From a candidate division TM6 bacterium GW2011_GWF2_37_49 (GTDB taxonomy: Bacteria; Babelota; Babeliae; Babelales; RVW-14), in assembly GCA_000989955.1 (NCBI GenBank), contig LBTE01000005.1, positions 22,405-86,404 on the forward strand: 64,000 nt of DNA, given 5' to 3'. The position numbers were made by a program. Of the stretch, positions 16,901 to 19,900 are shown one piece after another. Each line of letters starts with the position of its first letter. Position 1 is the first letter of the stretch.

Positions 16901-19900
16901 GATTTGTAAAACCTTTCATTGATGGAAGTGGTGCTTCTAAAACTGTTGAACTTAAAAATGTGTATTCTTATCGCATGAACTTGGTCAAGAACTTGCTTTA
17001 CAGAGATTCATCTGGTGTTGTTTATTCTGTACTAAGATATAATCCAACCACTAAAAATATGTATCTTGGCAATGCTGCGTACGGTCTTGCAGCCTCAGGC
17101 ATTAAAAACTACGGTTCAGAGGTTACAAGTGCACAAATTCCTTTTGTAGTAATTAAGGGTAATTACGGAGAAAAAGCTCCATACAACCAAGGCGGTGCAT
17201 TATTGCTATATAATACTGATGGTAAGACTCTGAATACTCAGAGTGAGGCAGGAGCTTCCATAAACTATCCAGTTTCTACTGCGCATAGCTATCAATCTCC
17301 ATTAAAAGGTTCTGAGTTAATTGCTTTAACTAACACGGCAGATCCAGGTGCGGACAGGGCTGGCGTGTTTGTAAATGGTACGGATTATTCAACTCCTGAC
17401 CAAAGCAATGATTTGTGGTTAACCACGGTTAATGGTGGCAATGATGGAGATTTTACTGGAGTTTCTAAGACAGGCGTAGACTTTATTGAACAGCATCTTG
17501 CAAGATACCACTTTGATGTAACCGATTGGTTGCAAGATCGTGGTTTTGAGATGAAGACAAATGAAGAGACAAGTTTTGGCGATATCACAGCTGAAGTCTT
17601 CTATGAACACTGCTTCAATGACAGCTGGAGAGGCGAGCTTGAGTTGGGCGTCAAGATACCAACCGGCAATGGCGGCAGCGATTACAGCGACAGCATGTAC
17701 AATGCATATCGCGTACAAATGGGCAATGGCAGCCACTGGGAAATCAAGCTTGGTGGTTTAGTTGCATGGCAGAAACTTGATGCAGCAGTAAACTTTGCAA
17801 TCGAAGACACAGAGCAAAGATGCGCAGCATACAAGGGAGCAACAATCAAGAACTTTGGTCCTCGTGCAGATGCTGAAGTCAGCTGGACATCCTTTGTCGG
17901 CAACTTAGACTTCAACTTTACACATCCAAAGACCAAGAAGATCAAGGGTATGATCGGTTATCAATTCTACTACAAAACAGAAGACGATATCGATTTCAAG
18001 AACAGCACAGCCGCAACATGGCTTGGCAAAGTTTGGTCATTGGCTGATGGTGTAACAGCAGCTCCAATTAACCCTGCAGATGGCGAACAAACACCATCTG
18101 TTCGTGGAACACAATGGAGCACAAAGCCTCTTGAAATGGAACTTTCTAGCCACGTAGCAGAAATGAACACAGAACAAATGGCTCACAGACTACGCATGGA
18201 AGGTGCTTACTCACTCAGCAAGTACCTTACAGTCGCAGTTGGCGGATTGTACACATTTGCAGGTCAAAACATTCCAGCAGAAGCAGACATCCATGCTGGT
18301 TGCAACGTAAGATTTTAATCTGACGTTTGAATAAATAGTTTGACAACAAACTGTTGTAAGGAAGGGAGAGCGCAAAACGCTCTCCCTCCCTTCTTTTTTG
18401 TCACTAAAAACGGCGAAGATTAAGTTTTTACTGATTCACGATACAGCTTTGCACGTCGTCCTCGCGAAAGCGGGGACCCAGGCTTAAATTCTATCTTGTT
18501 ATCTAAACTAAAGCCTTTATAATAGCTGAATGAAGAGTTTTTATGTTTATATTTTGTGCTCCGGTAAAAATGGAACACTGTATATCGGTGTGACAAATGA
18601 CCTAAATCGAAGAATTCAGATTCATAAGAAAAGGCTAATTCCTGGGTTTACTCAACGATATGGCGTTGAATACTTGGTGTACTATGAAATTTTTGAATCA
18701 ATAACATTGGCAATTCGTCGCGAAAAACAACTAAAAAAATGGAACCGGCAGTGGAAAATTCAGCTCATTGAGAAAGTGAATCCTGAATGGATAGATTTAT
18801 TTGATTCTGAGCTGGGTCCCCGCTTTCGCGAGGACGACGTGATGTGAGAACGTTTATTATTGCTGAGTAACGCAAGTTTGTTATTTTTGATGGCTGTTTA
18901 GAATCTTTGCGCGTCTATTATGCGTATATTCCGGAGAAAAAAATATTGCTTTTATTAGGAGATGACTTGGTGCAATATTCGATTAGCTCATTGCTTTGAC
19001 GTAATTAATTTTATTGATTAGATCGAGCATCACAGTCCTAATGCCACTTTTTGCAACTTTTCAAAAACTTATTCGCTAACCACGACCCAATCAGTGCTAG
19101 CAGGCCGCATCTAAAAAATTATCATTTCCTCGATAGCTCTCATGAAATCGACATTGTAGCGTGTGGTAGTTGATGTATGAGCGTGTTGGTCATAGTTTTG
19201 AATGCTCGCCTTGAAGCTAATAAAAGAAGCCGCCAAGTATTTAAGTCGAGCGGCTTCTTTTATTAGAACTCTTCTAAGTTTTTATAATTTTGGAAGATGT
19301 TTAATTAAAGACGGAAGGTTAATTATAATATTTCATCGACGCCATCAATTAAGCAATCAGCAGCATCTTTCCAGCTTGAAGTATCACCCTGCGACCAACC
19401 AATTTCAAATAAAATCGCTGGAGAAGCGATCCCCAAAAGTGGTTTTACAGGAATACCAAGCAGATCCACAAATTCAAAAGTTTCACGATTCAAAGAGCCA
19501 GAAATAGATGATTGTAGGCGTTCTGCGATATGCCGTGTTTTATAAATATTAAATTGATGAGCTTGCATTACAGGAATAAAGCTTAATTCAGGAGTATTTC
19601 GTCGAGCAAAATCTGCGATTGGATCGGCAACATAGTAATAAATATAAATTTCGTGCTTTGGGCGTTCGCTAGCATAAAAATGAAGGCTTAAAAAAAGATC
19701 AACGCTCAAACGATTGGCAAATGAGGCATTTTGAAAATCAACAACAGTCTCACCAGGAGTGCGTGTAAGCACTACACGAAGATTGTCGTTTTTGCTTTCA
19801 AGCCGCTCTTGAATGTACTGTGCCATTTTTATAGTTTCGGCTCGCTCGTAGCTATTTTTTAACTTACGACCAGCATCACCGGCATGCCCAGCAGGATTGA

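What the first reader, a model, noticed from the sequence alone, without database searches (positions are those of the whole stretch)
18452..18841. GIY-YIG nuclease gene bracketed by a perfect 30-bp inverted repeat made of GAAA-loop hairpins, resembling REP/RAYT logic but with a GIY-YIG enzyme
18452-18481 (CACGTCGTCCTCGCGAAAGCGGGGACCCAG) and 18812-18841 are exact reverse complements, 30 of 30 positions. They enclose one 105-aa GIY-YIG (COG2827/UPF0213-type) ORF. The right arm encodes that ORF's last 11 residues (LGPRFREDDVM).

Each arm also folds alone: GTCCTCGC-GAAA-GCGGGGAC is an 8-bp stem with one T-G pair. The hairpin is therefore better on one strand, which hints at an ssDNA or RNA form.

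An identical orphan unit sits 10 kb away at 8289-8317. A sequence variant (GGATTCCCGG-TTAAG-CCGGGAATGACG) lies at 8229-8259 in the opposite orientation.

A nuclease gene flanked by inverted copies of a hairpin that is also scattered in the genome is the arrangement known for REP elements and their RAYT transposases. Here the enzyme would be a GIY-YIG nuclease. I cannot verify from this window whether this association has been formally described.
Basis: partly seen in the sequence, partly recalled or inferred. Interest (0 to 1): 0.7.

Follow-up and report, generated by a model that had tools for sequence, protein, structure and literature searches.

The report
Ssn hairpin-nuclease cassette in TM6
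This is a small GIY-YIG nuclease gene bracketed by two inverted copies of the DNA hairpin it most likely cuts, a gene-plus-repeat system (Ssn nuclease and its SRM/NTS hairpins) that was already described in 2025, so it is a real but known kind of element found here in an uncultured TM6 bacterium.

Summary
Window 18452-18481 and 18812-18841 are a perfect 30-nt inverted repeat around one 105-aa GIY-YIG gene. The same hairpin recurs at 8289-8317, and a second hairpin type lies at 8229-8259.

It is not new. Chenal et al. (Nat Commun 2025, PMC11893778) described the Ssn family: about 94-aa single-domain GIY-YIG enzymes that bind a hairpin repeat (NTS/SRM, CGTC-stem-loop-stem-CYRG) only as single-stranded DNA, on one strand, and cut just 5' of it. 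Their genes are typically flanked by those hairpins.

- **Protein:** it is 60% identical (E 6e-36) to the Neisseria gonorrhoeae SsnA orthologue, and the catalytic Tyr/Tyr/Glu are conserved.
- **Hairpin:** it has the NTS layout (4+8+4+8+4 nt).
- **Generality:** 32 of 71 independent homologue loci carry the same flanking hairpin pair, with compensatory stem changes.
- **Dispersal:** close relatives of the cassette sit in four unrelated gene neighbourhoods, and similarity ends at the hairpins. The orphan hairpins occupy a spacer that two more distant relatives (holB 82% and 69% identical) lack.

Verdict: a new member of a known kind, from a groundwater TM6/Dependentiae genome. Interest is low. 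Whether the nuclease itself drives dispersal remains open.

The parts
18452..18481 (+). Left arm of the perfect inverted repeat. The SRM (Ssn-related motif) hairpin core is 18454-18481, read on the + strand: CGTC-GTCCTCGC-GAAA-GCGGGGAC-CCAG.
   Evidence: The layout is the same 4+8+4+8+4 as the Neisseria NTS, CGTCATTCCCGCGMAVGCGGGAATCYRG. It matches the published degenerate SRM motif with one substitution (W->G), which is compensated on the other side of the stem. ssDNA fold -7.2 kcal/mol.
18496..18523 (+). Promoter-like site TTGTTA-16 nt-TATAAT inside the cassette. It ends 6 nt before the ATG, which implies a very short or absent leader (inference).
   Evidence: 10 of 12 consensus positions. 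The segment is conserved in the related cassettes L002, L005 and L006. The consensus match alone is weak evidence: 3 sites were found against 3.0 expected in the region.
18530..18847 (+). ssn gene: a 105-aa single-domain GIY-YIG nuclease. The conserved core is residues 1-94 (18530-18811). Residues 95-104 are translated from the right hairpin.
   Evidence: Pfam PF01541 E 8e-17. 60% identity over 86 aa, E 6e-36, to the N. gonorrhoeae SsnA orthologue. Y7, Y18, H32 and E65 are invariant in 37 homologues. The sequence is identical to KKQ32813.1 from a candidate division TM6 bacterium.
18812..18841 (-). Right arm of the inverted repeat. The SRM hairpin core is 18812-18839, read on the - strand. It overlaps the last 10 sense codons of ssn.
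   Evidence: In the 84%-identical relative P0005 (L006) the gene stops 28 nt before the right hairpin. The C-terminal tail here is therefore read-through into the repeat.
8289..8317 (+). Orphan SRM, identical over 29 nt to the cassette arms. It lies in the tmk-holB spacer.
   Evidence: The spacer is absent in relatives L212 and L213, where tmk and holB overlap.
8229..8259 (-). Orphan SRM of a second class: CGTC-ATTCCCGG-CTTAA-CCGGGAAT-CCAG, read on the - strand. Its CGTC end faces the CGTC end of the neighbouring orphan.
   Evidence: It is the only strict match to the published SRM motif in the window (8230-8258). ssDNA fold -8.5 kcal/mol, z -4.0. The same stem/loop class flanks other Ssn homologues (L142, L168, L176, L192).

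Best explanation
Window 18452-18841 is an SRM-ssn-SRM cassette. It carries a gene, with a promoter-like site of its own, for an Ssn-family enzyme. Ssn enzymes are single-domain GIY-YIG, site-specific single-stranded-DNA endonucleases. The gene is bracketed by two inverted copies of its cognate hairpin, the Ssn-related motif, which is the counterpart of the Neisseria NTS.

By homology with the characterised Neisseria and Wolbachia enzymes, the protein should act as follows. It binds the hairpin only when the DNA is single-stranded. It binds only the strand that reads 5'-CGTC-stem-GAAA-stem-CCAG-3'. It hydrolyses the backbone a few nucleotides 5' of the motif. From my reading of the paper's oligo-truncation data this is about 3 nt upstream. 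That puts the cuts near 18450/18451 on the + strand and near 18842/18843 on the - strand, one nick per strand, just outside each end of the cassette.

The orphan hairpins at 8230-8258 and 8289-8317 are further copies of the same repeat family.

What is shown here:
- family membership of the protein and of the hairpin;
- selection for the hairpin structure;
- generality of the gene-hairpin linkage;
- the cassette as a discrete unit found in unrelated neighbourhoods;
- the orphan hairpins lying in a spacer that two relatives lack.

What is inferred from homology: ssDNA-specific, strand-specific cleavage.

What is speculative: that this nicking drives dispersal of the cassette and hairpins. It may instead, or also, trim single-stranded DNA during recombination or DNA uptake, as in Neisseria.
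For: **Published biochemistry and genomics of Ssn/NTS/SRM:** (PMC11893778).

**Protein**
- GIY-YIG domain only, 105 aa.
- 60% identity, E 6e-36, to the 94-aa N. gonorrhoeae SsnA orthologue, which itself sits among canonical NTS copies.
- hhalign probability 100%.
- Y7/Y18/E65 align with the Y6/Y17/E64 whose mutation abolished cleavage.

**Hairpin**
- Same layout and same conserved CGTC / CCAG flanks as the NTS.
- The T.G pair makes the NTS-sense strand the better hairpin.

**Linkage**
- 32 of 71 homologue loci have strong flanking inverted hairpins; shuffled-control scores were 8-14, against observed scores of 16 or more.
- 47 of 71 have at least one strict SRM and 20 of 71 have one on both sides. 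The upstream SRM is usually on the gene strand and the downstream one on the opposite strand, so the GTC ends face outward.

**Structure selection**
- 51 unique 28-nt SRMs form 388 of 408 Watson-Crick pairs, with several pair types at four stem positions.
- In 123 genome copies the closing pair is A-T 81, G-C 26, A.C 13, G.T 3.

**Discreteness**
- Cassettes in L002, L005 and L006 are 90, 80 and 76% identical in nucleotides to the window's unit. They lie next to dnaB, Sua5 or a Cu-oxidase_4 (PF02578) gene rather than the OMP-like and amidase genes.
- Flanks outside the hairpins are no more similar than shuffles.

**Orphans**
- The tmk-holB spacer holds two SRMs here. In two relatives the genes overlap and there is no spacer.
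- Only 6 of 119 genome stretches with this exact hairpin have an ssn gene within the 8 kb read.
Against: - No experiment on this protein or this hairpin exists. The specificity and the cut position are extrapolated, and the paper shows that homologues differ in cut position and cross-specificity.
- The main hairpin fails the published degenerate SRM pattern at one position.
- CDD assignment to cd10448 could not be run.
- I compared with the N. gonorrhoeae orthologue, not with the N. meningitidis protein CAX49033.1 that was assayed.
- Only four SRMs occur in 64 kb. The whole-genome count is unknown, so enrichment in this genome is not established.
- No target-site duplication or conserved target was found.
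- GIY-YIG enzymes hydrolyse without a covalent intermediate (established knowledge of the superfamily), so cleavage alone cannot explain transposition.
Confidence: 0.87

Rival explanations
1. Autonomous insertion-sequence-like transposon. The SRM-ssn-SRM unit moves as a whole, Ssn is the enzyme that mobilises it, and the orphan hairpins are its gene-less derivatives, as REPs are to RAYTs or MITEs are to IS elements. This overlaps with the best explanation and differs only in claiming that Ssn is the mobilising enzyme.
For: - The unit has sharp boundaries at the hairpins and sits in four unrelated contexts at 76-90% nucleotide identity.
- Homologues are 60-70% identical across distant phyla and mostly lie on very short contigs, as expected for repeated or mobile DNA.
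- The orphan hairpins occupy a spacer that relatives lack.
- A promoter-like site lies inside the unit.
- The discoverers raise the same hypothesis.
Against: - GIY-YIG nucleases are hydrolytic and form no covalent DNA intermediate for strand transfer (established knowledge).
- The two cleavable sites lie on opposite strands, unlike IS200/IS605, where both ends are processed on one strand.
- No target-site duplication or target motif beyond Y before GTC.
- The left and right hairpins of one cassette often differ from each other, yet each keeps its own pairing. Selection therefore acts on each hairpin, not on terminal-repeat identity.
- There is only one ssn copy in 64 kb.
- The orphan pair at 8230-8317 has its CGTC ends facing inward, not the outward arrangement of a gene-less cassette.
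Confidence: 0.3
2. Host-serving single-stranded-DNA restriction or recombination modulator, as shown for N. meningitidis. Ssn trims incoming or recombining ssDNA at SRMs and so limits integration near SRM-marked genes. On this view the flanking hairpins around its own gene are just local members of that repeat set.
For: - In Neisseria, deleting ssnA raised transformation with NTS-bearing DNA 5-fold, and mutating the NTS abolished the effect.
- The window protein is a 60%-identical homologue.
- SRMs in the window are intergenic, next to housekeeping genes.
Against: - Natural competence is not known for TM6/Dependentiae, and nothing in the window bears on it.
- There is no match to any PADLOC defence model.
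- The tight, cross-phylum conservation of the gene-with-both-hairpins unit, and its non-syntenic positions, are more easily explained by a selfish unit than by a host regulon.
Confidence: 0.3
3. Free-standing GIY-YIG homing endonuclease. It would cut an intact double-stranded target site and be copied in by repair, with the hairpins incidental.
For: There are weak matches to phage GIY-YIG homing endonuclease models: PHROG 5123 at E 6e-4 and TIGR01453 at 19.4 bits.
Against: - The TIGR01453 score is far below the 56-bit cut-off.
- The protein is the bare 94-aa catalytic domain plus a repeat-derived tail, with no DNA-binding domain.
- Characterised relatives do not cut dsDNA at all.
- The hairpin linkage is systematic, not incidental.
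Confidence: 0.04
4. Chance or generic structure. The hairpins would be ordinary REP-like or terminator elements that happen to flank an unrelated small gene, or they would act at the RNA level as transcript-end stabilisers.
For: - The right hairpin lies at the 3' end of the mRNA.
- GC-rich hairpins stand out in a 38% GC genome.
Against: - No T-run follows either hairpin, and the terminator scan does not call them.
- In the mRNA sense the right hairpin is the weaker, C.A-mismatched form.
- SsnA does not bind RNA.
- There is no Rfam family match.
- The same pairing of gene and hairpin recurs in 32-47 of 71 independent loci.
Confidence: 0.03

Closest known systems
Ssn nuclease family with NTS/SRM hairpin repeats (SsnA of Neisseria meningitidis; Chenal et al., Nat Commun 2025, PMC11893778)
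   Same: - Single-domain GIY-YIG protein with a core of about 94 aa, 60% identical to the Neisseria orthologue, with the catalytic Tyr/Tyr/Glu conserved.
- Hairpin repeat with the same length plan and the same CGTC / CCAG flanks.
- Hairpins on both sides of the gene in inverted orientation.
- Additional orphan copies in intergenic DNA.
- The strand asymmetry of the hairpin fits one-strand ssDNA recognition.
   Different: - The host is an uncultured groundwater TM6/Dependentiae bacterium.
- The stem sequence differs: GTCCTCGC/GCGGGGAC with a G-C closing pair and an internal T.G. It therefore misses the published degenerate motif at one position.
- The two arms are a perfect 30-nt repeat.
- The right hairpin is read through as the last 10 codons. 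This recurs in about 11 of 71 homologue loci.
- No biochemical or genetic data exist for this member.
REP elements and RAYT (REP-associated tyrosine transposases), and IS200/IS605 TnpA
   Same: - A small nuclease gene is flanked by inverted copies of a hairpin repeat that is also dispersed, mostly without the gene.
- The enzyme recognises the hairpin in single-stranded DNA and cuts beside it.
   Different: - The enzyme fold and chemistry differ: a GIY-YIG hydrolytic nuclease rather than an HUH/Y1 enzyme with a covalent 5'-phosphotyrosine intermediate.
- In IS200/IS605 both ends are processed on the same strand. Here the cleavable strand switches between the two ends.
- No transposition has been shown for Ssn.
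UPF0213 / YhbQ-type small GIY-YIG proteins (solved: BH0048 1zg2, EF2693 1ywl)
   Same: Stand-alone GIY-YIG domain of about 100 aa, in the same superfamily.
   Different: Similarity is only distant (E 2e-5 and 5e-3), against 60% identity to SsnA. I know of no hairpin-repeat association for that clade, and I did not test for one here.
GIY-YIG homing endonucleases (I-TevI type)
   Same: GIY-YIG catalytic motif; a selfish-element lifestyle is plausible.
   Different: No DNA-binding domain, no intron or phage context, the score is far below the family cut-off, and characterised relatives act on ssDNA only.

Membership tests
Ssn nuclease family (GIY-YIG cd10448) | Single-domain GIY-YIG protein of 150 aa or fewer | tested here: met
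   105 aa. PF01541 covers residues 4-77 and there is no other domain. The conserved core ends at about residue 94.
Ssn nuclease family (GIY-YIG cd10448) | BLASTP similarity to Neisseria SsnA with E < 1e-10 over at least 75% of it (the paper's operational criterion) | tested here: met
   60% identity over 86 of 94 residues, E 6e-36, to the 94-aa N. gonorrhoeae orthologue. Caveat: this is the gonococcal orthologue, identified by length, by Y6/Y17/E64 and by NTS flanks. It is not the assayed meningococcal CAX49033.1.
Ssn nuclease family (GIY-YIG cd10448) | Catalytic residues whose mutation abolishes cleavage (Y6, Y17, E64 in Nm SsnA) | tested here: met
   Y7, Y18 and E65 align with them and are invariant in 37 homologues.
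Ssn nuclease family (GIY-YIG cd10448) | Top CDD hit is cd10448 (GIY-YIG_unchar_3) | not testable with these tools
   No CDD/rpsblast was available. Indirect support: much closer to SsnA than to the solved UPF0213 proteins.
Ssn nuclease family (GIY-YIG cd10448) | SRM hairpin within 500 bp on both the 5' and the 3' side of the gene | tested here: met
   The hairpins lie at 18454-18481 (+), ending 48 nt before the ATG, and at 18812-18839 (-), overlapping the 3' end.
Ssn nuclease family (GIY-YIG cd10448) | Binds and cuts only ssDNA, on one strand, a few nt 5' of the hairpin | not testable with these tools
   This needs purified protein and oligonucleotides. Only the strand asymmetry of the hairpin is visible.
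SRM / NTS repeat | Match to the degenerate motif HGTCWYN(0-2)YYVSBRHN(0-5)WNVSBRGN(0-2)RNCYNB | tested here: inconclusive
   8230-8258 (-) matches strictly. The three copies of the main hairpin match with one substitution (W->G, paired with C). Shuffles give 0.1 strict matches and 2.0 one-substitution matches per window. The same G-C variant flanks other homologues (L127, L185).
SRM / NTS repeat | Hairpin maintained by compensatory changes, with conserved non-palindromic flanks that give it an orientation | tested here: met
   388 of 408 Watson-Crick pairs, with multiple pair types. Closing-pair covariation and Y at -1, C at +1, A at +2.
SRM / NTS repeat | Many copies per genome, mostly intergenic, mostly without the gene | tested here: inconclusive
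   There are four copies in 64 kb. Three are intergenic; the fourth overlaps only the 3' end of ssn. The rest of the genome was not available. Elsewhere, 113 of 119 stretches with this exact core have no ssn gene within the 8 kb read.
REP/RAYT and IS200/IS605 | HUH/Y1 transposase (Y1_Tnp fold) | tested here: not met
   The only domain is GIY-YIG.
REP/RAYT and IS200/IS605 | Gene flanked by inverted copies of a dispersed hairpin repeat | tested here: met
   This is a shared arrangement only, not shared ancestry.
Classical insertion sequence | Terminal inverted repeats plus a transposase plus a target-site duplication | tested here: not met
   Inverted repeats are present. There is no transposase domain. 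No direct repeat or conserved target was found outside the hairpins in 38 cassettes.
GIY-YIG homing endonuclease | Catalytic domain joined to a DNA-binding domain; family model score above cut-off | tested here: not met
   TIGR01453 scores 19.4 bits against a cut-off of 56. There is no extra domain.
UPF0213 / YhbQ clade | Close sequence similarity to UPF0213 members | tested here: not met
   Best solved UPF0213 proteins: E 1.9e-5 and 4.9e-3, against E 6e-36 to SsnA.

The most novel reading that the evidence does not exclude
The SRM-ssn-SRM unit is a true autonomous mobile element of a new mechanistic class. A hydrolytic GIY-YIG nuclease nicks single-stranded hairpins on opposite strands at the two ends. 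Host replication or repair then copies the unit, and solo hairpins, into new sites. This would explain the sharp hairpin-bounded units in unrelated neighbourhoods and the hairpin-filled tmk-holB spacer seen here. The discoverers raised the idea as a hypothesis, but no one has shown it.
Probability: 0.3. Interest if true: 0.6.

Novelty: new member of a known kind. Interest (0 to 1): 0.2.

Why it matters
The finding adds little that is new. The gene-hairpin partnership, its ssDNA chemistry and the REP/RAYT analogy were published in 2025.

Its modest value is threefold:
- It extends the system to TM6/Dependentiae, a lineage of uncultured bacteria.
- It shows a hairpin subtype that the published search pattern misses by one base. 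That subtype is nevertheless present, letter for letter, in at least 119 genome stretches across many phyla.
- It gives comparative evidence that the cassette is a discrete unit found at unrelated loci, and that solo hairpins occupy a spacer absent from relatives. This bears on the still-open question of how these repeats spread.

It also explains a common annotation artefact: odd peptide tails such as GPRFREDDV, VIPAKAGIQ and SFPRRRESR on small GIY-YIG proteins are translated hairpins.

Tried and rejected
- **RNA families:** the Rfam scan of the whole window and the tRNA scan found nothing, so no described RNA family matches the hairpins.
- **Terminator function:** rejected. There is no T-run and the scan does not call the hairpins.
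- **Defence libraries:** PADLOC gave no hit. PHROGs gave only a marginal homing-endonuclease match.
- **Solved structures:** none for an Ssn member; only distant UPF0213 proteins.
- **Paper supplements:** not held. I could not take the assayed protein or oligo sequences from them. I recovered a Neisseria orthologue instead, from two gonococcal chromosomes filed as plasmids in PLSDB.
- **Apparent extra similarity left of the left hairpin** (alignment): tested against shuffles and rejected.
- **Target-site duplication or target motif:** none found beyond a pyrimidine before GTC.
- **Empty-site test at the cassette's own locus:** inconclusive. Orthologues of the upstream OMP-like gene (64-76% identity) lie on contigs that end just after the gene, or have a different downstream gene.
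- **Genome-wide count in the source genome:** not possible.
- **Second ssn gene or pseudogene near the orphan hairpins:** none in the window.
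Full report
**1. The observation**

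Window 18452-18481 (CACGTCGTCCTCGCGAAAGCGGGGACCCAG) and 18812-18841 are 30/30 complementary, 330 nt apart. The 20-nt hairpin core occurs three times in the window (8294-8313 +, 18458-18477 +, 18816-18835 -), even with three mismatches allowed. No match occurred in 100 dinucleotide-preserving shuffles.

The arms enclose a single ORF, 18530-18847 (+), 105 aa. Its only domain is GIY-YIG (PF01541, E 8e-17, residues 4-77).

Folded as single-stranded DNA, the strand that reads CGTC...CCAG forms an 8-bp stem with a GAAA loop at -7.2 kcal/mol. The complementary strand has a C.A mismatch where the first has T.G and reaches only -5.4 kcal/mol.

The orphan copy at 8289-8317 is identical over exactly 29 nt. 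The variant hairpin at 8229-8259 lies on the other strand.

Minor corrections: the right arm encodes ten residues (LGPRFREDDV), and the final Met and the stop codon lie just outside it.

**2. Source and setting**

The protein is identical to KKQ32813.1, annotated 'Excinuclease ABC, C subunit domain protein' from a candidate division TM6 bacterium. The same DNA is on a groundwater metagenome contig from SRR1658473.

The window is ordinary chromosome at 33-43% GC. It carries ATP synthase, a P-type ATPase, a tRNA synthetase, Ddl, and LRR, TPR and collagen-repeat proteins.

The cassette lies between the terminator of a 649-aa OMP-like gene (hairpin 18363-18387 plus a T-run) and a convergent amidase gene (19323-20015). 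The two orphan hairpins lie in the 187-nt spacer between tmk (8360-8989, -) and holB (7345-8172, -).

**3. What it is**

A full-text search found Chenal et al., Nat Commun 2025 (PMC11893778). That paper reports the following.
- SsnA of Neisseria meningitidis is a 94-aa single-domain GIY-YIG protein of CDD family cd10448.
- It binds the repeat CGTCATTCCCGCGMAVGCGGGAATCYRG (NTS) only as single-stranded DNA and only on that strand.
- It cuts a few nucleotides upstream.
- It does not act on dsDNA or RNA.
- Y6A, Y17A and E64A abolish cleavage.
- Across reference genomes, 71% of homologue genes have an SRM nearby and 42% have one on both sides.
- The authors note that NTS-ssnA-NTS looks like an insertion sequence, and they compare it with IS200/IS605 and REP/RAYT.

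**4. Membership, tested here**

*Protein.* PLSDB happens to hold two N. gonorrhoeae chromosomes filed as plasmids. tblastn found the orthologue there. It is a 94-aa ORF with Y6, Y17 and E64, sitting among five canonical NTS copies. The window protein is 60% identical to it over 86 residues (E 6e-36), and a profile of 37 homologues matches it with probability 100%. Y7, Y18, H32 and E65 are invariant in that alignment.

*Hairpin.* The window's repeat has the NTS plan exactly: CGTC, an 8-nt stem arm, a 4-nt loop, an 8-nt stem arm, then CCAG. The variant at 8230-8258 (-) satisfies the published degenerate SRM pattern strictly. The main type misses it at one position (G instead of W), where the partner base has changed to C and keeps the pair.

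I could not run CDD, and no assay exists for this member.

**5. Is the linkage general?**

I checked it independently of the paper.

Among the 120 best of 5,680 homologues, many carry N- or C-terminal extensions that are translated hairpins: GSPLSRG, DPGLRRDDV, GFPPSRE, VIPAKAGIQ, MSFPRRRESR, MDSRVRGND. P0100 has one at each end.

I then examined 80 metagenomic loci encoding homologues of 50-70% identity. Seventy-one had enough flank to judge.
- 32 have a strong inverted repeat across the gene. Observed scores were 16 or more; shuffled controls reached 8-14.
- 47 have at least one strict SRM.
- 20 have a strict SRM on both sides.
- The upstream SRM is usually on the gene strand and the downstream one on the opposite strand, so the GTC ends face outward.
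- In about eleven loci the downstream hairpin overlaps the end of the ORF, as it does here.

The stems show plain compensatory change. Fifty-one unique 28-nt SRMs form 388 Watson-Crick, 6 wobble and 14 mismatched pairs. Three or four different pair types occur at stem positions 3, 5, 6 and 8.

The two hairpins of one cassette often differ from each other while each keeps its own pairing. Selection therefore acts on each hairpin rather than on arm-to-arm identity. The perfect 30-nt repeat in the window is a particular, probably young or homogenised, case.

**6. The hairpin elsewhere**

The organisms range from Patescibacteria and Omnitrophota to Proteobacteria and Bacteroidota.
- Only 6 of these stretches have an ssn gene within the 8 kb read, and only 3 have one within 200 nt. 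Most copies are orphans.
- The R/Y pair that closes the stem covaries: A-T 81, G-C 26, A.C 13, G.T 3.
- The flanks keep Y at -1, C at +1 and A at +2. These are the positions the paper found critical for cutting and binding.

**7. Evidence that the unit and the hairpins move**

*The cassette.* The closest relatives of the gene (84-92% protein identity) lie next to different genes. P0001 follows dnaB, in the same sample as the window. P0004 precedes a Sua5 gene. P0005 lies between Sua5 and a Cu-oxidase_4 (PF02578) gene. Each has its own flanking hairpin pair.

From hairpin to hairpin, the units are 90, 80 and 76% identical in nucleotides to the window's. This includes the promoter-like TTGTTA-16-TATAAT that ends 6 nt before the ATG. 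Outside the hairpins the flanks are no more alike than shuffled sequence.

In P0005 the gene stops 28 nt before the right hairpin. The window's C-terminal tail is therefore read-through into the repeat, not a conserved part of the enzyme.

*The orphan hairpins.* Relatives with 82% and 69% identical holB have tmk and holB overlapping, with no spacer. The window has a 187-nt spacer with two SRMs. A 90% relative has a 174-nt spacer filled by a different GC-rich repeat.

*Limits.* No target-site duplication or target motif was found beyond a pyrimidine before GTC. An empty-site test at the cassette's own locus was inconclusive, because the orthologous contigs end early or have lost synteny.

**8. 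How it most likely works**

*Shown here:* family membership, hairpin selection, gene-hairpin linkage, discreteness of the unit, and its occurrence at unrelated loci.

*Inferred from the characterised homologues:* the enzyme binds the hairpin extruded in single-stranded DNA on the CGTC...CCAG strand and nicks about 3 nt upstream. This is my reading of the 37-nt and 28-nt oligo data, and homologues vary by a nucleotide or more.

In the window this predicts two cuts: one near 18450/18451 on the + strand and one near 18842/18843 on the - strand. That is one nick per strand, just outside the cassette.

This geometry differs from IS200/IS605, where both ends are cut on one strand. GIY-YIG chemistry is also hydrolytic, with no covalent intermediate (established knowledge of the superfamily). 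If cleavage promotes spread, it must do so through host replication or repair. That step is speculative.

The alternative or additional role shown in Neisseria is trimming incoming ssDNA and so lowering recombination near hairpins. It cannot be assessed for a TM6 bacterium from this window. No defence-system model matches the protein.

**9. Verdict**

The system is known.

This is a new member of the Ssn/SRM kind, in TM6/Dependentiae, with a hairpin subtype that the published pattern misses by one base. Interest is low.

The open and more interesting question is whether the nuclease itself mobilises the cassette and its hairpins. The evidence here does not exclude this, but it does not demonstrate it either.

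Noticed in passing
L210:995-1170, compared with window 8173-8359: A close relative (holB 90% identical, same sample) has a different GC-rich repeat (…TTCGACAAGCTCAGGGCGAGCGG…) filling the same tmk-holB junction that holds the two SRMs in the window. More distant relatives have no spacer at all. The junction seems to have been hit independently by two repeat families.
   Followed up: partly
L005:590-720: Downstream of a related cassette the right-end hairpin is repeated two to three times, about 45 nt apart, with a conserved 17-nt linker (GGTGCGAAAAATTCGC). This is a small BIME-like tandem cluster.
   Followed up: no
L002:2089-2429: The 92%-identical paralogue or orthologue next to dnaB is followed by further hairpins of other classes (AATTCCTGGCTGGACCAGGAATCC, CTGGATCCTCGCG…). 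The contig ends inside one of them. This fits the many very short contigs among the homologues, where assembly appears to break at the repeats.
   Followed up: no
proteins P0046, P0086, P0095, P0100 and others: Many database entries for this family have spurious N- or C-terminal extensions that are translated hairpins (VIPAKAGIQ, MSFPRRRESR, MDSRVRGNDK, GSPLSRG). This is a systematic gene-calling artefact around SRMs. The holB relative P0154 (309 aa against 275) also has an N-terminal extension that starts in the repeat-filled spacer.
   Followed up: partly
PLSDB records NZ_CP119140.1 and NZ_CP119142.1 (L209): Two 2.17-Mb Neisseria gonorrhoeae chromosomes are filed as plasmids in the plasmid collection, almost without annotation. 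This was useful here but is a database error.
   Followed up: no
window 8320-8345 and 8195-8215: The tmk-holB spacer also holds fragments that look like decayed hairpin halves: CTGGG repeated next to the first SRM, and GGGATCCAGGAAT near holB. This suggests repeated insertion and decay at the site.
   Followed up: no
window 41546-43987 (-): An 813-aa ORF has two full sets of D-Ala-D-Ala ligase domains (two N- and two C-terminal stretches). It appears to be a tandem Ddl-Ddl fusion.
   Followed up: no
window 60938-62479 (+), with 61216-62075 (-): A collagen-triple-helix repeat protein of 513 aa is overlapped by two long antisense ORFs. The antisense ORFs are probably artefacts of the GC-rich Gly-X-Y repeat. 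The window also holds two giant ORFs without Pfam hits (10763-16291, 1842 aa; 45134-50416, 1760 aa) and an LRR protein (50817-53168).
   Followed up: no
genome loci L007-L125: The identical 24-nt hairpin core is shared by organisms as distant as Uhrbacteria, Saccharibacteria, Omnitrophota, Sphingomonas, Massilia, Sulfurovum and Flavobacteriia. Together with 60-70% protein identity across phyla, this points to strong constraint and/or frequent horizontal transfer of the pair.
   Followed up: partly
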